Of a stretch of DNA of 64,000 bases, positions 2,141 to 51,722 are shown piece by piece. The position numbers and the translations under genes were made by a program. The notes below the pieces were generated by a model. That model was not told the DNA's origin. It made no database searches and was given only the letters and a program-made list of their open reading frames with translations. The stretch is from an uncultured Candidatus Saccharibacteria bacterium (GTDB lineage: Bacteria > Patescibacteriota > Minisyncoccia > Phycocordibacterales > UBA9973). The stretch is from contig CAZKJE010000002.1 in NCBI GenBank assembly GCA_964553015.1, positions 14,175 through 78,174 of the forward strand, written 5' to 3'. Positions within the stretch are counted from its first letter, which is position 1; every line of letters begins with the position of its first letter.

Positions 2141-2142
2141 AG

Positions 2143-2151
2143 TTATCCACA
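2143..2151 (+). promoter_or_regulatory. TTATCCACA motif (identical to the DnaA-box consensus), 9 bp upstream of a -35 box
   Basis: Perfect 9-mer preceded by G. Same motif and orientation at 18821, 19812 and 44720 (variant). Confidence 0.4.
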
Positions 2152-2160
2152 TCTGGCTTG

Positions 2161-2189
2161 TTGACAGTGAACGCTCGTTCACTTATACT
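2161..2189 (+). promoter_or_regulatory. Sigma70-type promoter with a LexA (SOS/Cheo-type) box in the spacer
   Basis: TTGACA (2161..2166), 17-nt spacer, TATACT (2184..2189). The spacer is the inverted repeat GTGAAC-GCTC-GTTCAC (2167..2182), which contains GAAC-N4-GTTC. A lexA homolog lies downstream. Confidence 0.7.
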
Positions 2190-2203
2190 AATTAAGTCGC
2201 AAA

Positions 2204-2253
2204 TACCCCTACCCGGCCTCTCCCTAAAGTAGGGGGAGGAGAAAGGAGGGGGT
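2204..2253 (+). repeat. GC-rich palindromic element in the 5' UTR of the SOS-controlled transcript
   Basis: CCTCTCCCT-AAAGT-AGGGGGAGG with an outer ACCCCT/AGGGGGT pairing. The core resembles part of the 40714..40852 element. Confidence 0.55.
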
Positions 2254-2278
2254 AAATTATAAAATTAAAAACAAAGCT

Positions 2279-2479
2279 ATGAGTCAAACACAATATTTAA
2301 AAATGCTGGAGAGAGAAATCCAAGCAATAAATAAGAGGATAGATCTTAAAATTCTCAAGGGTCAGAATTATCACAAAGAGGCGATAGAACACAAGCTCCT
2401 AATTAGGAAAGTGCGATATCATTCCCGAAGTAACTTTTTGCGTAAATTTTTTCCCACTTTTGCGCAGTTTTCTTTTTAG
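2279..2479 (+). CDS. Hypothetical small basic protein (66 aa), first ORF of the SOS-box transcript
   Basis: ORF lies between the SOS promoter and lexA. No convincing SD at proper spacing and no recognisable family. Confidence 0.35.
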   Translation: MSQTQYLKMLEREIQAINKRIDLKILKGQNYHKEAIEHKLLIRKVRYHSRSNFLRKFFPTFAQFSF

Positions 2480-2506
2480 TTTCTTTCTAAAAGATAAACA
2501 AAATAA

Positions 2507-3076
2507 ATGATAAGAAATCCCCATCAGATAAAAATAGAATCTTTCTACGGAGAGAATAAGAGGATGCCGACGTATTCGGAAATGATGAAGCTCTTCGGCT
2601 ACAAATCCAAGAATGCGGTTTTTAAAGTCGTGGAGAAATTGATTGACGCAGGGCTCGTCGCCAAAGATCATCTCGGCCGGTTAGTACCCACACAATCTTT
2701 TGGCGAAGTTCCGATGCTTGGGCTGGTGACTGCCGGTTTGCCTGCAAGTGTGGAAGAAGAGCTCGCAGATACTGTGAGCTTGGACGAATTTTTAATAGAA
2801 AAGAAAGCTTTTACATATATGCTAGAGGTGGACGGGGATTCTATGATAGATGCGCACATAGAAAAGGGGGATATGGTTCTCGTCGAGAAGGCAAACCAGG
2901 CTAAAGATATGCAGATAGTCATCGCCGAAGTGGATGGCGAATTTACGATGAAATATTTTAGGCGTGATGGGAATAAATGTTGGCTCGAGCCGGCCAACAA
3001 AAACTACAAACCGATCTATCCGGAACATTCTTTAAATATAAATGCAGTGGTGAAAGCGGTGATTAGGAAATACTAA
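2507..3076 (+). CDS. lexA: LexA repressor (S24 peptidase)
   Basis: 189 aa. N-terminal winged-HTH region (MPTYSEMMKLFGYKSKNAVFKVVEKLIDAGLV), a GLVTAG linker, and a C-terminal S24 domain with the Ser (GDSM) and Lys (TMKYF) dyad context. Confidence 0.85.
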   Translation: MIRNPHQIKIESFYGENKRMPTYSEMMKLFGYKSKNAVFKVVEKLIDAGLVAKDHLGRLVPTQSFGEVPMLGLVTAGLPASVEEELADTVSLDEFLIEKKAFTYMLEVDGDSMIDAHIEKGDMVLVEKANQAKDMQIVIAEVDGEFTMKYFRRDGNKCWLEPANKNYKPIYPEHSLNINAVVKAVIRKY

Positions 3077-3530: not shown

Positions 3531-5057
3531 CTACCGGGCGTATTCCACAATTCTTGTCTCTCGGATCATAGTGACCTTGATTTCTCCCGGATATTTTAGT
3601 TCCTGCTCTATTTTTATAGCTATATCGCGTGCCATTATTTTAGCTTCGGCGTCAGATATCTTTTCCGGAGTTACAAATATGCGGATTTCGCGTCCGGCCT
3701 GCAGAGCATATGATTTTTCAACAGCAGGGAACTGGTTTACCAGAGCTTCGAGCTCCTGCAACCTCTTTAGGTAATTTTCAACAGAGTCTCGACGGGCTCC
3801 CGGACGGCCTCCGGATATCGCGTCTGCGGTCTGCACGATGATGGATTCAATAGTTTCGTATGGATAGTCCTCGTGGTGCGATTTCATTGCAGTCACGATG
3901 CGTTCGTCAGCGCCGAATTTCTGAAGGATACGCATGCCTATCTCCACATGCGTGCCCTGTACTTCGTGGTCGAGCGCTTTTCCGATGTCATGCACCAAGG
4001 CTCCAGCCTTGGCAATCTGTACATCGGCGCCGAGCTCTTCGGCAATCATGCCGGCAATGTGAGACATTTCCGTAGAGTGCTGTAGAACGTTCTGGCCATA
4101 GCTTGTTCGGAAATATAATCGGCCGATAATCGCTACGATGCGCGGATCAAAGTTAAATATTCCGCATTCATACACCGCCTGTTCTCCTTTTTCCTTAATT
4201 ATTTTATTTATATCTTCCTTCGCTTTTTCTACGAGCTCTTCAATTTTTGCCGGCTGAATGCGTCCGTCTAAGATTAGGTTCTCAAGCGCCAAGCGGGCTA
4301 CCTGTCTTCGGATAGGATCGAAACAGGAGATAACAATAGAGCCAGGAGTATCGTCCACGATGAGCTCCACTCCCGCTGCCCGTTCAAATGCGCGGATATT
4401 GCGGCCTTCTTTTCCGATAATTTTTCCTTTAATTTCATTGTTTGGAATAGAAACAACTGTCGTCATGAGTTCGGAAGCTGTACTCGCGGCTAAACGCTGA
4501 ATAGAAGTCGCCAGGATATCTTTTGCGTGCCTATCAAGCTTTTCCTCGTTACTATTTTCCAATTTCTGAATACGAATCATGATGTCTTCTTCATATTTTT
4601 TTTCTACATCTCGAAGAAGTTCTTCTTTGGCTTCGTTTTCTGTCAGCTCTGCGACTCTCTCCAGCTCTATTCTTTTTTCATCTTCTATTTTTAATATTTT
4701 TTCCTGTATTTTTTTAACCTCCTCAACTTTTAGCTTGATCACTTCGGCTTCCTTGTTTACTTCCACCTGCCGCGCGTCCAAGAACTCATCTTTTTTTATG
4801 AGTCTTTTTTCGGTTTCTTTCCATTCATCAGTCTTTCTCTTCTCTTCTTCTTTTAAGTTGCCGACCAGCTCTTCGGATTTTTTCTTGGCTTCATCCGTGA
4901 TCCTTTGCGCTTCTTCTTTCGCGCCGACCATCATCTGTTTTATGTCTATCTCAATAGACCTGCGTTTTCCGAGCGCGACCAAAAGGCGCAGATAGTATCC
5001 GACTATCACGCCCAAAAGGAGCACTCCGACTCCGACTAGAATTATTATTATGCTCAT
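3531..5057 (-). CDS. rny: Ribonuclease Y
   Basis: 508 aa. N-terminal TM anchor, K/E-rich coiled coil, KH domain (GKIIGKEGRNIR) and HD domain (VHDIGKA, SHHEDYP). Confidence 0.9.
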   Translation of the reverse strand: MSIIIILVGVGVLLLGVIVGYYLRLLVALGKRRSIEIDIKQMMVGAKEEAQRITDEAKKKSEELVGNLKEEEKRKTDEWKETEKRLIKKDEFLDARQVEVNKEAEVIKLKVEEVKKIQEKILKIEDEKRIELERVAELTENEAKEELLRDVEKKYEEDIMIRIQKLENSNEEKLDRHAKDILATSIQRLAASTASELMTTVVSIPNNEIKGKIIGKEGRNIRAFERAAGVELIVDDTPGSIVISCFDPIRRQVARLALENLILDGRIQPAKIEELVEKAKEDINKIIKEKGEQAVYECGIFNFDPRIVAIIGRLYFRTSYGQNVLQHSTEMSHIAGMIAEELGADVQIAKAGALVHDIGKALDHEVQGTHVEIGMRILQKFGADERIVTAMKSHHEDYPYETIESIIVQTADAISGGRPGARRDSVENYLKRLQELEALVNQFPAVEKSYALQAGREIRIFVTPEKISDAEAKIMARDIAIKIEQELKYPGEIKVTMIRETRIVEYAR

Positions 5058-5248
5058 AAGCCTGTGTCAGCTTACAAGAACAAACCACTATATTTTAGAT
5101 TTTTCCTGCCTGCATGCCAAAGATTTGCAAACTTTCTCTTATCTTTTCTTTTGAAAACTTCATAATATATGGGATATTCCTGTGAACCAATGTAAAATAA
5201 ATTTTTAAAATTCAACGTACATAGTATAACAGAAAGGATAAAATTAGT

Positions 5249-5854
5249 CTAGTTTTCCTGTTTTGACCCTGGAGTTTTGGATTTGGTGACTATTTCGTCT
5301 ATTATTCCGTACTTCTGCGCCTCTTGCGCATCCATGAAGAAGTCCCTCTCCACGTCTTTTTCAATCTGGGTGAGGGATTTGCCGGTATTTTTTGCCAAAA
5401 GTTTGTTTAAATTATCTCTGGTCTTTAAAATATGCTTTGCCGTGATTGCAATATCGGTGGCTTGGCCTTCCACTCCGCCCAAGGGCTGGTGGATCATGAT
5501 CTCGGCGTTCGGCAAAATATAGCGCTTGCCACGCTTACCGGAAGACATGATGATAGCGGCGCCTGAAGCAGCGAGGCCGACACAGAAGGTAGAAATATCC
5601 GGACGGACATGATTCATGGTGTCCACTATGGCCATAGTAGAAGTCACCGATCCGCCCGGAGAATTTATATAAAGATGAATATCTTTTTTAGCATCTTCGG
5701 ATTCTAGAAATAGAAGCTGGGCGATGACGATATTTGCGGTGTTGTCGTCAATCGGTCCGGCTAAAAAGACTATCCGCTCGCGCAAAAGGCGGGAATATAT
5801 GTCGTAAGCGCGTTCTCCAAATTGCGATTTTTCTATTACTGTTGGTATTAACAT
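5249..5854 (-). CDS. clpP: ATP-dependent Clp protease proteolytic subunit
   Basis: 201 aa. ClpP family throughout ([29 protein letters not shown]). Confidence 0.95.
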
Positions 5855-5893
5855 GTAAATATTATATTCTAATTTTTAACTTTTTCAAGCTTG

Positions 5894-5922
5894 TTGACAT
5901 AAACCTACTTTAAGTGTATAAT
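5894..5922 (+). promoter_or_regulatory. Consensus promoter for the small ORF at 5964
   Basis: TTGACA (5894..5899), 17 nt, TATAAT (5917..5922). Confidence 0.65.
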
Positions 5923-5963
5923 ACCAAACGAATAAAAATTGAACCAAAAGGAGGATTCCAATC

Positions 5964-6143
5964 ATGAAGTTTATTTTCTTGCAGAATACATCTGACGGGT
6001 GCAAGCCCATGTGGCTTACGCCCCCGTTTGATGCCCCGTCCGTAGAAAGAGCGGATCAGATCACCAAAGAGCGATACCTCCACGAGGGCGAGCTCTACAA
6101 AAAGGTTGAAAAAACCGAGACGATCGTGAGAGGAATCTGGTAG
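5964..6143 (+). CDS. Unlisted small ORF (59 aa), hypothetical
   Basis: ATG at 5964 is preceded by AAAGGAGG at proper spacing. It has a consensus promoter upstream and tandem terminators downstream. Translation: MKFIFLQNTSDGCKPMWLTPPFDAPSVERADQITKERYLHEGELYKKVEKTETIVRGIW. It is below the 60-aa cutoff of the ORF track. G+C and codon choice are visibly richer than in neighbours. Confidence 0.5.
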   Translation: MKFIFLQNTSDGCKPMWLTPPFDAPSVERADQITKERYLHEGELYKKVEKTETIVRGIW

Positions 6144-6161
6144 AGTAGCACAACAACATCG

Positions 6162-6252
6162 CTCGCTCTGGGCAAGAAGACTCGTCTTCTGCTTCGGGCG
6201 AGTTTTCTTTTTACCTCCTTGCCCTGCTTAGCGGGGCTTGCTTCTCTTTTTT
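6162..6252 (+). terminator. Two tandem intrinsic terminators
   Basis: Long hairpin 6162..6202 followed by TTTTCTTTTT. Second hairpin GCCCTGC-TTA-GCGGGGC (6221..6237) followed by a T-rich tail. Confidence 0.6.
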
Positions 6253-6275
6253 AAAGTGCTACTATTTTACCTAAT

Positions 6276-7523
6276 GTGTCTAATGAAATACGTAAAAATA
6301 TGCCAAGAAAAATGATAAGTGTAGAAGGCAACATAGTAAATAAAGATAAAGTTTTCCGCGGAAGAATTGAAATTGATCAGAGCGGAATGATAGATAAAAT
6401 CGGCGAACCGAAAGGTGACGCCGATTTTATTTTTGAGGATGAATTAATTTTTCCCGGATTCATAGATCTGCATGTGCATGCGCGGGAAGATGCAAGCCAC
6501 ACGCAAGATTACAAAGAAGATTTTATCTCCTCGGGAGTTGCGGCGATAAGCGGCGGAGTGACAGCATTTGCAGAAATGCCGAACAATCCAGTACCGCCGA
6601 TTGATGATAAAAGTTACGCAGAAAAAAAAGAATTAACTAAGAAATCTCCAGTTCCAGTTTTACTTTATGCAGGCATCGGCCCTAAGACAAAACCGCTTTC
6701 ATCAAAAGTTCCGTACAAAGTTTTTATGGGTAAATCTGTCGGCGATCTTTTTTTTACAACACTGGAAGAATTAGAATCAGTAATAAAAAATTACAAGGGA
6801 CAATACGTGAGTTTCCACTGCGAGGATCCGGAAATTCTGGAAGAAAAAACTCATGAGTTAACTCATGAGTTACAGCGCCCCAGAGAAGCTGAAATTTCCG
6901 GAATAGATTTCGCGCTCAAATTAATAGAAAAATATAATATTTTTGGAAAAATTTGTCATGTATCTACGATAGGAGGAATACAAAAAATTATTGAAGCAAA
7001 AAAAAGAGGGGTAAATGTAACAGTAGAAGTAACTCCGCATCATTTGTATTTTGCGAAAGCAAATAAAAATTTACAAGTCAATCCGCCCATACGTGATGTA
7101 GAAGATTGTGCGGCTTTAATAAAACTTTTGAAACGAGGCGATATTGATTTTCTTGCTACCGACCATGCTCCGCACACAAAAGAAGAGAAGAAAAAAGGAG
7201 TTTCAGGCATGCCGCATTTAGATACTTACGGACCGTTTATCGCATGGCTTATAAAAGAACACGGTTTTACGCAGGAAGAAATTGCGAGAGTATGCGCATA
7301 TAATCCGGGTGTTTTTTTAAATAGTTTTATGCCTGAGAAATATGGAGAAACAAAAGAAGGCTACGTTGGCTCGCTTACAGTAATAAATATGAACAAGCCA
7401 GTAAGGATAAAAAAAGAAATGCTTAAAACGAAATGCGGCTGGTCGCCTTTTCTGGGGGTGACATTTCCGGGAAGCGTTACTATGACAATAGTAAAAGGAG
7501 AAATTTATGAAAACAGAAAATAG
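6276..7523 (+). CDS. pyrC: Dihydroorotase
   Basis: 415 aa. Amidohydrolase metal motifs DLHVHAR and ATDHAPH. First gene of the pyr cluster. The start is uncertain (GTG 6276 per track, or an internal ATG). Confidence 0.85.
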   Translation: MSNEIRKNMPRKMISVEGNIVNKDKVFRGRIEIDQSGMIDKIGEPKGDADFIFEDELIFPGFIDLHVHAREDASHTQDYKEDFISSGVAAISGGVTAFAEMPNNPVPPIDDKSYAEKKELTKKSPVPVLLYAGIGPKTKPLSSKVPYKVFMGKSVGDLFFTTLEELESVIKNYKGQYVSFHCEDPEILEEKTHELTHELQRPREAEISGIDFALKLIEKYNIFGKICHVSTIGGIQKIIEAKKRGVNVTVEVTPHHLYFAKANKNLQVNPPIRDVEDCAALIKLLKRGDIDFLATDHAPHTKEEKKKGVSGMPHLDTYGPFIAWLIKEHGFTQEEIARVCAYNPGVFLNSFMPEKYGETKEGYVGSLTVINMNKPVRIKKEMLKTKCGWSPFLGVTFPGSVTMTIVKGEIYENRK

Positions 7524-39070: not shown

Positions 39071-39145
39071 TTGATATTAGTAGCAAAATAGACTTATGAA
39101 ACTACAAGAAGGATAATAGCGTAACTAAACCATAAAGTCAATTTG

Positions 39146-39535
39146 TGGAGATGGGGGAAATTGAATCCCCGTGCAGAAGGTTTTTGCAAAGAAGTCTACA
39201 TGCGTAGCGCGCTTTTTGTTTTAAATTAAAAAATTATGAAACGCGCCAAATATTTTTTAACCGAGTTCTTTTGTTTTGCGAGAGCGTCAGAACAGGCGTT
39301 CAAGCTATCCCGATAATGTTATGCCTCGTCTTATATATCGGAAGTCTATAAGAGAGACACCACCTCAGGCTTACGCGAAAGATGGAGCGAAAGCGAGCGC
39401 ATTACCGAAGTAAGGCGAACGCATTGCTGTGAAAGCTGATTTTGCAATTAGCTGTTGAACGAATTTTTACGAGATTACGTTCATTCTCGGCATGCATCAA
39501 TAACAAATGGCCAACTGTCTATGCCTTGCATCCCC
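39146..39535 (-). ncRNA. ssrA: tmRNA (SsrA)
   Basis: The 5' GGGGATG pairs with the 3' CATCTCC, including the G3:U pair. T-arm GGGGA-TTCAATT-TCCCC, discriminator A, and CCA not encoded. Immediately downstream of smpB. The candidate tag frame ends ...GNALAFAPSFA-TAA, but the resume codon was not determined. Confidence 0.85.
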
Positions 39536-43323: not shown

Positions 43324-43998
43324 ATGGCGAGAAAACAAGATAAACAAAGCGTTTTGGCTATGCGCAAGAGAGGAATGAGCTACAGCCAGATCAAAGGGAA
43401 AATAAAAATAAGCAAAAGCACTTTGAGTGTCTGGCTTAAAGATTTACCACTCGATGAAAAACGGATAAGAGAATTAAGAGACAATAGCCCTATTCGTATT
43501 GAAAAATTCAGAAATACAATGCGAGCAAAAAAAGAGATGAGACTTTATGAGGTATATAAAAAAGTCGCAAATGATATTTGTGATCTCTCAAAAAGAGATT
43601 TATTTTTAACAGGCTTGTTCTTATATTGGGGAGAAGGCACGAAATCACAAAATTCTTTAGTTGCCCTCACAAATACAAATCCAGCCATGGTTAAGTTTTT
43701 CATACAATGGCTAAAATTGTTTGGAGTAAAAAGCAAAGATTTGAAAATTAAACTACATTTATACTCCGATATGAAAATTAAAGAAAGTCTTGATTTTTGG
43801 TCAAAAGAGCTTAATATTCCGATAAGCCAGTTTTATAAGCCGTATGTTAAGAAAAATACTCTCAAATCTATCTCGTATAAAAATGGCTTTGGAAAAGGAA
43901 CATGTAGTGTTATATTTGGGAGTAGAGATCTTTGGGAATATATAACAATGGGATTGAAATATATTTCTGAAATTAGTAATGAAAATTTCCGCCCCTAG
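43324..43998 (+). CDS. HTH plus LAGLIDADG-like (homing-endonuclease-like) protein
   Basis: 224 aa. N-terminal resolvase-type HTH (RGMSYSQIKGKIKISKSTLSVWLK). A single LAGLIDADG-like motif (LTGLFLYWGEGTK). The last 10 nt, including the TAG stop, lie inside the tRNA gene. Confidence 0.45.
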   Translation: MARKQDKQSVLAMRKRGMSYSQIKGKIKISKSTLSVWLKDLPLDEKRIRELRDNSPIRIEKFRNTMRAKKEMRLYEVYKKVANDICDLSKRDLFLTGLFLYWGEGTKSQNSLVALTNTNPAMVKFFIQWLKLFGVKSKDLKIKLHLYSDMKIKESLDFWSKELNIPISQFYKPYVKKNTLKSISYKNGFGKGTCSVIFGSRDLWEYITMGLKYISEISNENFRP

Positions 43999-44061
43999 CT
44001 CAGTTGGTAGAGCAATCCGCTTATACCGGATCGGTCCTTGGTTCGAGTCCAAGGGGGCGGA
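43989..44061 (+). tRNA. tRNA-Ile with anticodon UAU
   Basis: Cloverleaf read by hand: acceptor CCGCCCC/GGGGCGG, D-arm GCTC-AGTTGGTA-GAGC, anticodon arm ATCCG-CTTATAC-CGGAT, variable loop CGGTC, T-arm CTTGG-TTCGAGT-CCAAG, discriminator A. CCA is not encoded. Confidence 0.8.
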
Positions 44062-44063
44062 CA

Positions 44064-51299: not shown

Positions 51300-51722
51300 A
51301 TGAAAATCAAAGTTAAAAAATTAAAAGAAAATGCAAAGCTGCCTACATATCATCACCCCGGAGATGTGGGCATGGATTTGTATTCTATGGAAGAAGTGAC
51401 AGTAAAACCCGGAGAGCACTATCGTTTCTGGCATGGCTTTGCTCTTGAATTTCCGGAAGGCTATGCGGCTCTTATAATGGATAAAGGAAGTATTTCCAGG
51501 GCTGGATTTGCGCATATGGGCGGAGTATATGATGCAGGCTACAGAGGCGAATACAATACACTATTGGTAAATTTGTCCGATCAGCCGTATACTTTTGAAG
51601 TAGGTGATAAAGTTTCCCAGCTTGTCATCACGCCGGTAGAAATTGCAGAATTGGAAGAAACAGATACTTTGAGCGAGTCTGCTCGCGGGGAAGGTAAATT
51701 TGGAAGTACCGGAAGAAAATAA
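51300..51722 (+). CDS. dut: dUTP diphosphatase
   Basis: 140 aa. GVYDAGYRGE and the C-terminal RGEGKFGSTG motif. Preceded by AGGAGGGG. Confidence 0.9.
   Translation: MKIKVKKLKENAKLPTYHHPGDVGMDLYSMEEVTVKPGEHYRFWHGFALEFPEGYAALIMDKGSISRAGFAHMGGVYDAGYRGEYNTLLVNLSDQPYTFEVGDKVSQLVITPVEIAELEETDTLSESARGEGKFGSTGRK

What the first reader, a model, noticed from the sequence alone, without database searches (positions are those of the whole stretch)
5894..6252. Unannotated 59-aa ORF with a consensus promoter, strong SD and double terminator between clpP and the pyr operon
The unit is self-contained. It has a promoter (TTGACA, 17 nt, TATAAT) and an AAAGGAGG SD before ATG 5964. The 59-codon ORF is richer in G+C than its flanks and uses CTC, TAC, GAG and ATC codons. 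Two tandem intrinsic terminators follow. It falls below the ORF-track cutoff. Its expression signals are the strongest in the window and differ from the leaderless, SD-less host style. That resembles the other foreign-looking gene at 18958. The function is unknown.
Basis: seen in the sequence. Interest (0 to 1): 0.5.

Follow-up and report, generated by a model that had tools for sequence, protein, structure and literature searches.

The report
Strain-specific orphan mini-gene beside clpP
A roughly 310-base block found only in this one uncultivated groundwater bacterium carries a complete promoter, ribosome-binding site, 59-codon gene and terminator, but the protein resembles nothing known, so it is a credible yet ordinary orphan small gene of unknown role.

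Summary
TTGACA-17-TATAAT lies at 5894-5922 and is the only 12/12 promoter match in the window. AAAGGAGG lies at 5947-5954, ATG at 5964, and a 59-codon ORF runs to 6143. A strong hairpin with a U-tract follows (T1, 6161-6212), then a second hairpin (T2, 6221-6237).

The genome is a Candidatus Nomurabacteria (Patescibacteria) MAG. About 27 related lineages keep clpP and pyrC divergent and adjacent. In 24 of them the gap is 77-338 nt and holds no gene. The window carries an extra block of about 310 nt (about 5890-6198) that none of them has.

T2 and the pyrC promoter belong to the host and are shared with relatives that lack the ORF. The ORF has no homologue in 15 billion proteins, Pfam, PHROGs, NCBIfam, PADLOC, PDB, phage, plasmid or IMG/VR data, and it matches no Rfam family.

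Codon statistics modestly favour coding. The transcript is predicted to be unusually structured (z about -3.3 to -3.9), with the start codon paired to codons 54-58.

The "foreign" gene at 18958 is a conserved family, GC-rich and SD-led in two of the three relatives' loci inspected.

Best reading: an expressed, lineage-specific small-protein gene. Function unknown; interest modest.

The parts
5894..5922 (+). Sigma-70-type promoter: -35 TTGACA (5894-5899), 17-nt spacer, -10 TATAAT (5917-5922). It sits back-to-back with the clpP promoter, 5 nt from the clpP -35 (5883-5888 on the minus strand).
   Evidence: the only 12/12 match in the window
5929..5963 (+). Inferred 5' UTR of about 35 nt. The transcription start is inferred 7-9 nt after the -10 box. 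The leader is A-rich and predicted to be unstructured, and it contains the SD AAAGGAGG at 5947-5954, 9 nt before the ATG.
   Evidence: (47-nt leader: MFE -2.1 kcal/mol, z = +1.2)
5964..6143 (+). 59-codon ORF (MKFIFLQNTSDGCKPMWLTPPFDAPSVERADQITKERYLHEGELYKKVEKTETIVRGIW). The product is 7.0 kDa, pI 6.6, hydrophilic, with no transmembrane segment or signal peptide. It is an orphan.
5989..6033 (+). Strong 17-bp hairpin inside the ORF (codons 9-24). It is the largest contributor to the excess predicted RNA structure.
6124..6138 (+). 3' arm of a predicted fold-back helix. Positions 6124-6129 pair with 5962-5967, which includes the AUG. Positions 6132-6137 pair with 5954-5959, the last SD base and the spacer. 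Pairing probability is about 1.0 once the RNA extends past about 6138.
   Evidence: (inverted repeat I2); only weakly significant
6161..6212 (+). T1, the unit's own intrinsic terminator. The stem-loop spans 6161-6203 (or a shorter form 6174-6209) and the U-tract spans 6203-6212. It starts 17 nt after the stop codon.
6221..6252 (+). T2: a hairpin at 6221-6237 plus a T-rich run. It is a host feature, not part of the inserted block. The hairpin abuts the pyrC -35 and the T-rich run overlaps it. A homologous hairpin is present in L019 and L025 (aligned). A similarly placed hairpin occurs in L028.
6238..6276 (+). Conserved pyrC promoter, given as context. It comprises -35 TTGCTT at 6238-6243, a TGn-extended -10 TACTAT at 6260-6265, and a conserved ATG at 6274-6276, 8 nt after the -10. 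The pyrC ATG is at 6312.
5890..6198 (+). Approximate extent of the lineage-specific block, absent from all relatives. The boundaries are uncertain by about 10 nt because the flanking intergenic DNA is diverged.

Best explanation
The block is a monocistronic, lineage-specific small-protein gene. It lies in the divergent clpP/pyrC promoter region of one Candidatus Nomurabacteria lineage.

Inferred mechanism:
- RNA polymerase starts at about 5929 from a consensus sigma-70 promoter.
- The 35-nt unstructured leader presents a strong SD to the ribosome.
- A 59-aa soluble protein is made.
- Transcription stops at T1, and the pre-existing host hairpin T2 acts as a backstop, so the strong promoter does not override the pyr promoter.
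- The full-length mRNA is predicted to be compact. It is predicted to pair its own start codon with the last codons of the ORF. If so, initiation would occur mainly on nascent transcripts and the mature RNA would be stable but poorly re-initiated.

Shown by the data: the signals, their geometry, the absence of the block from relatives, and the absence of homologues.

Inferred: transcription, translation, the fold-back, and any function.

My best guess is an accessory, strain-specific binding or modulator protein. No biochemical activity can be assigned.
For: - Signals and spacing are exactly those of a mini-gene: a 12/12 promoter unique in the window, an SD with a 9-nt spacer in an unstructured leader, and the first in-frame start at 5964.
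- The ORF fills the transcript, and T1 begins 17 nt after the stop codon.
- The ORF frame scores best of six with host codon statistics: +9.8 bits against -4 to -40 for the others. It lies in the top 4% of 335 spurious stop-free runs. GC3 minus GC2 is 0.29, in the top 3%.
- An SD followed by an ATG and a 59-codon open frame that ends just before a terminator is very unlikely by chance in a non-coding RNA.
- The plus strand folds better than the minus strand (z = -3.9 against -2.1), which agrees with the direction of the signals.
- Two independent assemblies give the same sequence.
- The same slot holds a different, conserved gene in two other lineages (L028 and Parcubacteria GW2011_GWA1_47_11). 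That gene is 149-151 aa, G+C-rich and strongly promoted, with the same architecture of consensus promoter, ORF and terminator, plus a hairpin before the pyrC -35 in L028. The site therefore tolerates and maintains expressed genes.
Against: - There is no homologue anywhere. The 5.8-billion-cluster word search found only the ORF itself. The exhaustive HMMER search over 1.84 billion representatives gave only translated tandem-repeat junk. Pfam, PHROGs, PADLOC, NCBIfam and PDB gave nothing. Phage, plasmid and IMG/VR searches gave nothing. The 76 related loci gave nothing. Purifying selection on the protein therefore cannot be shown.
- The coding statistics are only modest (p about 0.03-0.04), and the per-codon score (0.17) is below that of host genes (0.28 +/- 0.06).
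- AlphaFold2 without an alignment gives a poor model (pLDDT 57, pTM 0.20).
- The transcript body is the most structured 232-nt stretch among the 128 sampled across the window. That would also suit a functional RNA.
Confidence: 0.57

Rival explanations
1. The product is a structured small RNA of about 275 nt (5929 to T1), or a dual-function RNA. On this view the ORF is fortuitous or secondary, and the G+C-rich hairpins are the functional part.
For: - With dinucleotide shuffles, z = -3.9. My own run gave -3.3, against 128 windows across the 64 kb with mean -0.2, sd 1.0 and minimum -2.8.
- With the UTRs attached, none of 600 synonymous-codon permutations folds as well (z = -3.5).
- The plus strand is more structured than the minus strand.
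- The unit has a strong promoter and a strong terminator, and no protein homologue.
Against: - No Rfam family matches at E <= 1.
- With the CDS alone, the synonymous-permutation z is only -1.9, against controls of -0.13 +/- 0.94.
- A consensus SD at correct spacing, an ATG and a 59-codon frame ending 17 nt before the terminator are not expected in a pure sRNA.
- The codon periodicity favours the ORF frame.
- No relative carries the sequence, so there is no covariation support either.
- A native protein gene in the same window (18958) shows the same excess structure (z = -6.0 and -4.45), so structured mRNAs do occur for coding genes here.
Confidence: 0.15
2. The block is non-functional or decaying DNA. 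It could be a recently captured foreign fragment. It could also be the eroded remnant of a former occupant of the clpP/pyrC slot, such as the 150-aa gene of L028 and GWA1_47_11. On this view the ORF is not under selection.
For: - The ORF is a singleton seen in one genome only.
- The slot is empty in 24 of about 27 related lineages and holds a different gene in two, which shows turnover at this site.
- The coding statistics are only modest.
- The AlphaFold model has low confidence.
Against: - All four expression signals are intact and near-optimal, which is not expected of decaying DNA.
- There is no similarity to the 150-aa slot gene at the protein, profile or DNA level. hhalign gives probability 0.2%, Smith-Waterman scores sit at the shuffle mean, and tblastx E is at least 11.
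- There is no similarity to any larger protein of which it could be a fragment.
Confidence: 0.2
3. The block is a type I toxin-like module: a small toxic protein whose mRNA is kept translationally inert by a 5'-3' fold-back, as in hok mRNA.
For: - Once the 3' end of the ORF is transcribed, the AUG and spacer are predicted to pair with ORF positions 6124-6137 at probability about 1.0. Before that the AUG is about 60% unpaired.
- The unit has a strong constitutive promoter, is small, is lineage-specific and sits in an intergenic region.
Against: - The protein is hydrophilic, with GRAVY -0.59 and a maximum 15-residue Kyte-Doolittle value of 0.05, so it has no membrane segment.
- No antisense promoter lies within or next to the unit.
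- AUG occlusion arises in 5.5% of synonymous permutations, so the fold-back is not statistically compelling.
- PADLOC gives no hit.
Confidence: 0.05
4. The block is a leader peptide or attenuator that regulates the downstream pyr operon, like E. coli pyrL.
For: - It lies immediately upstream of pyrC-carA-carB.
- Terminators lie between it and the operon.
- Many relatives do have a leader peptide plus terminator in front of pyrC.
Against: - The pyr operon keeps its own conserved promoter downstream of T2.
- The ORF stops 17 nt before T1 rather than reading through it.
- The attenuator in relatives lies downstream of the pyrC promoter and is unrelated in sequence.
- The unit is absent from all relatives.
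- Rfam's PyrR element does not match.
Confidence: 0.03

Closest known systems
Phage 'morons' (autonomous promoter-gene-terminator units inserted between conserved genes; from my own knowledge of the Hendrix-lab lambdoid phage work)
   Same: The unit has its own sigma-70 promoter, a single small ORF and its own intrinsic terminator. Its base composition differs from that of its neighbours. It is present in one genome and absent between the same two genes in relatives.
   Different: It lies in a chromosomal housekeeping region (RNase Y, ClpP, PyrC, CarAB), not in a prophage. No phage or IMG/VR similarity was found. How it was inserted is unknown. No target duplication or terminal repeats were found.
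The 149-151-aa 'slot gene' between clpP and pyrC in L028 and in Parcubacteria GW2011_GWA1_47_11 (hypothetical protein UX77_C0004G0003)
   Same: It occupies the same position and orientation. Its consensus promoter begins a few nt from the clpP -35. Its ORF is G+C-rich at third positions (GC3 0.66-0.72, against 0.67 here). It has its own terminator, followed in L028 by the hairpin in front of the pyrC -35.
   Different: No detectable sequence relationship exists. That gene is conserved across two lineages at 52% aa identity, whereas ORF59 is a singleton. Its mRNA is not unusually structured (z = -0.27).
hok-type type I toxin mRNAs (fold-back inhibition)
   Same: The unit encodes a small protein from a strong promoter. 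A predicted long-range 5'-3' pairing covers the translation start.
   Different: The protein has no hydrophobic segment, no antisense RNA gene is evident, and the statistical support for the fold-back is weak.
E. coli pyrL / pyrBI attenuator
   Same: A short ORF and a terminator lie upstream of pyrimidine biosynthesis genes.
   Different: The ORF does not overlap the terminator, the unit lies upstream of the pyr promoter, and it is not conserved. The real pyrL-like element of this clade is a different sequence that this window lacks.

Membership tests
Any curated protein family (Pfam-A, PHROGs, NCBIfam, PADLOC) or solved structure | Significant profile or sequence match | tested here: not met
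   No family matched at E <= 10 (Pfam, PHROGs) or E <= 1 (NCBIfam, PADLOC), and no PDB chain matched at E <= 10.
Any Rfam RNA family | Covariance-model match | tested here: not met
   No match overlaps 5894-6252 at E <= 1. At gathering threshold the window yields only tmRNA and one tRNA.
Moron-like autonomous cassette | Own promoter, single ORF and own terminator, with composition unlike the neighbours | tested here: met
Moron-like autonomous cassette | Present or absent between the same conserved genes in related genomes | tested here: met
   The block is absent from all of about 27 related lineages with clpP-pyrC adjacency.
Moron-like autonomous cassette | Resides in a phage or prophage | tested here: not met
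   The neighbours are RNase Y, ClpP, PyrC and CarAB. No phage or IMG/VR similarity was found.
Type I toxin-antitoxin | Small hydrophobic, membrane-active toxin | tested here: not met
   GRAVY is -0.59 and the maximum 15-residue hydropathy is 0.05.
Type I toxin-antitoxin | Overlapping or adjacent antisense RNA gene | tested here: not met
   No minus-strand promoter-like site lies within 5900-6300. This is a consensus scan only.
Type I toxin-antitoxin | Long-range mRNA fold-back that occludes the translation start | tested here: inconclusive
   The fold-back is predicted with probability about 1.0. However, it also arises in 5.5% of synonymous permutations.
pyrL-type leader-peptide attenuator | Leader ORF reads through the terminator, downstream of the operon promoter | tested here: not met
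   The stop codon at 6143 lies 17 nt before T1, and the pyrC promoter lies downstream of both hairpins.
MITE or insertion sequence | Terminal inverted repeats, target-site duplication, multiple copies | tested here: not met
   No terminal inverted repeats or convincing direct repeats were found. No second copy exists in the window or in 76 loci.
Integron gene cassette | attC recombination site and a nearby integrase | not tested
   No integrase is present among the called genes near the unit. attC was not modelled.

The most novel reading that the evidence does not exclude
The clpP/pyrC divergent promoter region may be a gene 'slot' in Nomurabacteria and Parcubacteria. Unrelated, strongly promoted, G+C-rich genes would turn over in it. 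ORF59 would be one occupant, and its RNA would be a self-locking message. Its start codon would be sequestered by the end of its own ORF, so translation would be confined to the nascent transcript. ORF59 and the native 18958 family would then represent a distinct expression class in an otherwise leaderless, SD-poor host: 5' UTR, SD, high GC3 and excess mRNA structure.
Probability: 0.12. Interest if true: 0.55.

Novelty: new member of a known kind. Interest (0 to 1): 0.3.

Why it matters
If the gene is expressed, it adds one more strain-specific small protein to a candidate-phyla-radiation genome. In these organisms most accessory biology is unknown and small ORFs are routinely overlooked.

The more useful general points are contextual:
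- This host initiates most genes without an SD, and apparently often without a leader.
- It nevertheless keeps a few G+C-rich, SD-led genes with highly structured mRNAs.
- The divergent clpP/pyrC promoter region is a site where different genes come and go.

None of this changes current understanding unless the predicted self-occluding mRNA or the protein's function is demonstrated.

Tried and rejected
1. Known RNA. Rfam at E <= 1 over 5000-7000 and at gathering threshold over the whole window found nothing relevant. ARAGORN also found nothing here.

2. Protein homology. The word-indexed search of 5.8 billion clusters found only the ORF itself. The exhaustive HMMER search gave three hits that are translations of tandem-repeat DNA, which I rejected as spurious. 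Pfam, PHROGs, PADLOC, NCBIfam and PDB gave nothing. Phage and plasmid tblastn and blastn gave nothing. IMG/VR gave nothing by back-translated patterns or by two exact 22-26-mers.

3. Structure prediction. AlphaFold2 on the single sequence gave pLDDT 57 and pTM 0.20, too poor for a fold search.

4. Promoter duplication. I tested whether the ORF59 promoter is a duplicate of the pyrC promoter, which would mean the insertion duplicated its target. The local alignment score was 17, against shuffles of 15.2 +/- 2.6, so this is not significant and I dropped it.

5. Shared promoter/leader module with the L028 cassette. The score was 18 against 16.0 +/- 2.8, which is not significant.

6. ORF59 as a diverged or frameshifted remnant of the 150-aa slot gene. 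hhalign gave probability 0.2%, Smith-Waterman scores sat at the null mean, and tblastx E was at least 11. I rejected this as undetectable.

7. Paralogue elsewhere in the window. None was found.

8. Mobile-element ends. None was found.

9. Literature search for leaderless or SD usage in the candidate phyla radiation. Nothing usable was found.

10. One sliding-window folding run timed out. I repeated it at lower density.

Full report
**What is in the sequence**

The region contains a perfect sigma-70 consensus: TTGACA at 5894-5899, a 17-nt spacer, and TATAAT at 5917-5922. It is the only 12/12 match on either strand of the 64-kb window. Allowing one mismatch gives 2 sites, against 0.64 expected.

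AAAGGAGG lies at 5947-5954, 9 nt before ATG 5964. That ATG is the first start codon of its frame and opens a 59-codon ORF ending at TAG 6141-6143. The 47-nt stretch that holds the inferred 35-nt leader is predicted to be unstructured (MFE -2.1 kcal/mol, z = +1.2).

Seventeen nt after the stop codon, a long imperfect hairpin (6161-6203) is followed by UUUUCUUUUU. This is T1 (-19 to -26 kcal/mol, z = -2.8 to -3.3). The simple scan missed it because of its internal loops. A second hairpin, T2 (6221-6237), is followed by a T-rich run.

ORF G+C is 0.50 and GC3 is 0.667. The host values are 0.43 and 0.408, and the flanks are 0.27-0.39.

**Where the window comes from, and what relatives have**

PyrC-based searches of species-representative genomes and of metagenomes returned Candidatus Nomurabacteria / Paceibacterota (Patescibacteria) MAGs. 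PyrC identity to the window is 57-77%.

About 27 distinct lineages keep clpP and pyrC divergent and adjacent. In 24 of them the gap is 77-338 nt and has no ORF. The window's gap is 457 nt.

None of the 76 loci contains anything similar to the ORF or to the 5925-6215 core, by blastn, tblastn or tblastx.

A multiple alignment shows two things:
- Window DNA from just after the clpP -35 (about 5890) to about 6198 has no counterpart in relatives.
- The stretch from about 6199 onward aligns with relatives. It reads TTTTCTTTTTACCTCC-TTGCC-hairpin-GGGGCTTGCTTC...TTTTTTAAAGTGCTACTAT. In L019 and L025 the alignment includes the same hairpin, although neither has an ORF.

T2 and its T-run therefore belong to the conserved pyrC promoter region (-35 TTGCTT 6238-6243; TGn-extended -10 TACTAT 6260-6265). 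They are not part of the inserted unit. The lineage-specific block is about 310 nt: promoter, leader, ORF and the T1 stem-loop.

**Is the assembly trustworthy?**

The same sequence, flanks included, occurs in the 84-kb NCBI contig and in an independent Logan assembly of SRR12113420 (L001, 100% identical). Both sources call the ORF as a gene, with no name attached.

**Host expression style**

I examined 41 host ORFs in the window.
- Only 4 have any SD-like motif within 20 nt of the start. The one strong example is at 51300; carA at 7507 has AAAGGAGA.
- Twelve have a TAnnnT box ending 5-9 nt before the start codon, the geometry of leaderless mRNAs. clpP itself is one of these, with TATAAT 6 nt before its ATG.

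First, SD sites are used by a few native genes. Second, consensus -10 boxes are common in the host, so the promoter itself is not exotic.

**The comparison gene at 18958**

This gene resembles ORF59 in several ways. It has the SD GAAAGGAGGG, a G+C of 0.54, its own terminator, and a very structured mRNA (z = -6.0 by dinucleotide shuffle; z = -4.45 by synonymous permutation, against -1.5 to +2.2 for eight host genes).

It is not foreign, however.
- It has six homologues at 52-62% identity.
- In the loci inspected, the homologues sit upstream of a ~900-aa protein gene. In the two longer loci a PilB-type ATPase gene follows.
- Those homologues are also G+C-rich (0.51-0.58 in 0.38-0.41 genomes). 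The P0008 homologue (L077 and its duplicate place L078) has a clear SD, GAAGGAGG, before its start. The L080 homologue shows none in the 70 nt upstream.

High GC3, an SD and a structured mRNA are therefore a maintained, native style for a minority of genes in this clade. They do not by themselves show horizontal acquisition.

**Homology**

ORF59 is an orphan.
- The word-indexed search of 5.8 billion clusters returned only the ORF itself: one member on one contig.
- The exhaustive HMMER search of 1.84 billion representatives returned three further proteins. On inspection all are translations of tandem-repeat DNA. I reject them.
- Pfam, PHROGs, PADLOC, NCBIfam and PDB gave nothing.
- Phage and plasmid collections and IMG/VR gave nothing.
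- Rfam gave nothing.
- AlphaFold2 without an alignment was uninformative (pLDDT 57).
- The product is 7.0 kDa, pI 6.6, hydrophilic, and has no membrane segment.

**Coding or not?**

I scored the ORF with a log-odds codon model trained on 23 host genes against their off-frames.
- The ORF frame scores +9.8 bits. The other five frames score -4 to -40.
- Per codon it scores 0.17. This is in the top 4% of 335 spurious stop-free runs found inside host genes. It is below real host genes (0.28 +/- 0.06), as expected for atypical codon usage.
- GC3 minus GC2 is 0.29, in the top 3% of the spurious runs.

These are modest statistics. The geometry adds much more weight. A consensus SD at proper spacing, an ATG, and an open frame that ends 17 nt before a terminator would be a large coincidence in a non-coding RNA.

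**RNA structure, an unexpected feature**

- The transcript body (5929-6160, without terminators) folds at -66.8 kcal/mol with z = -3.9.
- In my own run z was -3.3. The 128 windows sampled across the 64 kb had mean -0.2, sd 1.0 and minimum -2.8.
- The minus strand gives only z = -2.1.
- I permuted synonymous codons, keeping the protein and the codon usage, with the UTRs attached. This gave z = -3.5, and none of 600 permutations was as stable.
- For the CDS alone the value is -1.9, against 115 host-gene controls at -0.13 +/- 0.94. Much of the excess therefore comes from UTR-ORF pairing, together with a 17-bp hairpin at 5989-6033.

Partition-function analysis predicts a progressive change.
- While the RNA ends before about 6125, the AUG is about 60% unpaired.
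- Once it extends past about 6138, the AUG (5964-5966) pairs with 6125-6127, and the spacer pairs with 6132-6137, at probability about 1.0.
- This is a fold-back of the translation start onto the last codons of the ORF.

The fold-back is suggestive only. AUG occlusion also arises in 5.5% of synonymous permutations.

**The slot is used elsewhere**

L028 (PyrC about 75% identical to the window over the 119 aa available) has a 745-nt gap. It contains TTGACA-16-TATAAT with an extended -10, a G+C-rich 151-aa ORF, a terminator, and a hairpin abutting the pyrC -35.

Its only homologue (52% identity in the MAFFT alignment, 49% by BLASTP) is in Parcubacteria GW2011_GWA1_47_11. There it lies at exactly the same place: RNase Y, ClpP, then divergently the 149-aa gene, PyrC and CarAB. 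By eye, its promoter region is almost identical to that of L028.

The site therefore maintains an expressed gene in at least two lineages. ORF59 shows no detectable relationship to that gene at the protein, profile or DNA level.

**Interpretation**

The best-supported reading is an expressed, lineage-specific small-protein gene of unknown function (confidence about 0.57). T1 is its terminator and the host hairpin T2 is a fortuitous backstop.

In E. coli, terminators closer than about 20-30 nt to a stop codon can be partly repressed by the terminating ribosome (PMC4824070, read). With T1 at 17 nt, a second hairpin 77 nt downstream could matter. This step is inference.

The rivals are listed separately with their weights: a structured or dual-function RNA, a decaying relic or captured fragment, a type I toxin-like module, and a pyr leader. 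No membership in any known protein or RNA family can be claimed.

**Verdict**

The feature is real and the unit is correctly delimited, apart from T2. It is lineage-specific and an orphan. It is a new member of a familiar kind: an autonomous small-ORF cassette. Interest is modest unless expression, the self-occluding mRNA or a function is demonstrated.

Noticed in passing
Related loci, e.g. L003:5886-6000, L016, L019, L023, L024, L026, L064 (not present in the window): Downstream of the conserved pyrC promoter, most relatives carry a 100-170-nt T-rich leader that ends in an intrinsic terminator (for example AAAGCCCCTGTCGGGGTTATTTTTTTG). A mini-ORF of 34-53 codons starts at the conserved ATG 8 nt after the -10, so it is apparently leaderless. 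It reads through the hairpin and T-run in one fixed frame (...APVGVIFL...). In 17 of 17 cases with a recognisable terminator, the ATG-to-hairpin offset is 1 mod 3 (offsets of 73, 76, 79, 82, 85 and 91 nt). This looks like a pyrL/pyrBI-type, translation-coupled, UTP-sensing attenuator with a leaderless leader peptide. It has no Rfam match.
   Followed up: partly
window 6260-6312: In the window the conserved ATG 8 nt after the pyrC -10 lies at 6274-6276. It opens only a 13-codon ORF (MCLMKYVKICQEK) that overlaps the pyrC start at 6312. The window, L002, L004, L005, L009, L012 and L014 lack the attenuator leader.
   Followed up: partly
L028:5256-6000 and L082:2856-3583: A conserved 149-151-aa orphan gene (UX77_C0004G0003 in Parcubacteria GW2011_GWA1_47_11) occupies the same clpP/pyrC slot in two lineages. 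It has a near-identical consensus promoter in both, GC3 of 0.66-0.72 and only 52% aa identity, while ClpP is 94.5% identical and PyrC about 70%. It is a fast-evolving, strongly promoted gene of unknown function.
   Followed up: partly
window 18958-19707: A G+C-rich, SD-led gene encodes a 249-aa protein with a signal peptide and no family assignment. It belongs to a small family conserved upstream of a ~900-aa protein gene, followed in the two longer loci by a PilB-type ATPase gene. Its mRNA is predicted to be exceptionally structured (z = -6.0; synonymous-permutation z = -4.45), with the SD paired to 19655-19662 at probability about 0.66.
   Followed up: partly
window 2142-2151, 18820-18829, 19811-19820 (also L080 downstream of its 18958-homologue): GTTATCCACA, which resembles a DnaA box, occurs three times exactly. 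With at most one mismatch there are 8 sites, against 2.6 expected. The three exact copies each lie near a promoter-like site; at 2142 and 19811 the motif sits just upstream of the -35. A related AGTTTTCCAC precedes the pyrC -35 in several relatives. This may be a transcription-factor binding site.
   Followed up: partly
window 2161-2500: A second near-consensus promoter (TTGACA-17-TATACT) is followed by a G+C-rich hairpin region (about 2205-2255, containing AAGGAGG) and a 66-aa ORF (2279-2479). It lies just upstream of a LexA-like gene at 2507-3076.
   Followed up: no
window-wide: Most genes lack an SD (4 of 41 have one). Many have a -10 box 5-9 nt before the start codon (12 of 41, including clpP), which suggests widespread leaderless translation in this Nomurabacteria genome.
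   Followed up: partly
L006:5502-5814: A partial duplication of clpP (residues 1-99, 92% identical) lies between the full-length clpP and pyrC. This is further evidence that the intergenic region is plastic.
   Followed up: no
window 43989-44062 and 39143-39535: The only tRNA in the window is tRNA-Ile with anticodon TAT (UAU). A tmRNA gene lies on the minus strand.
   Followed up: no
L019:5790-5860, L025, L026, L008, L023, L024 intergenic regions: Several relatives carry different G+C-rich hairpins or palindromes in the clpP/pyrC gap and after the pyr attenuator. Examples are GCCCGCCAAGGGCGGGC and the 70-nt palindrome in L026. Their origin and role are unknown.
   Followed up: no
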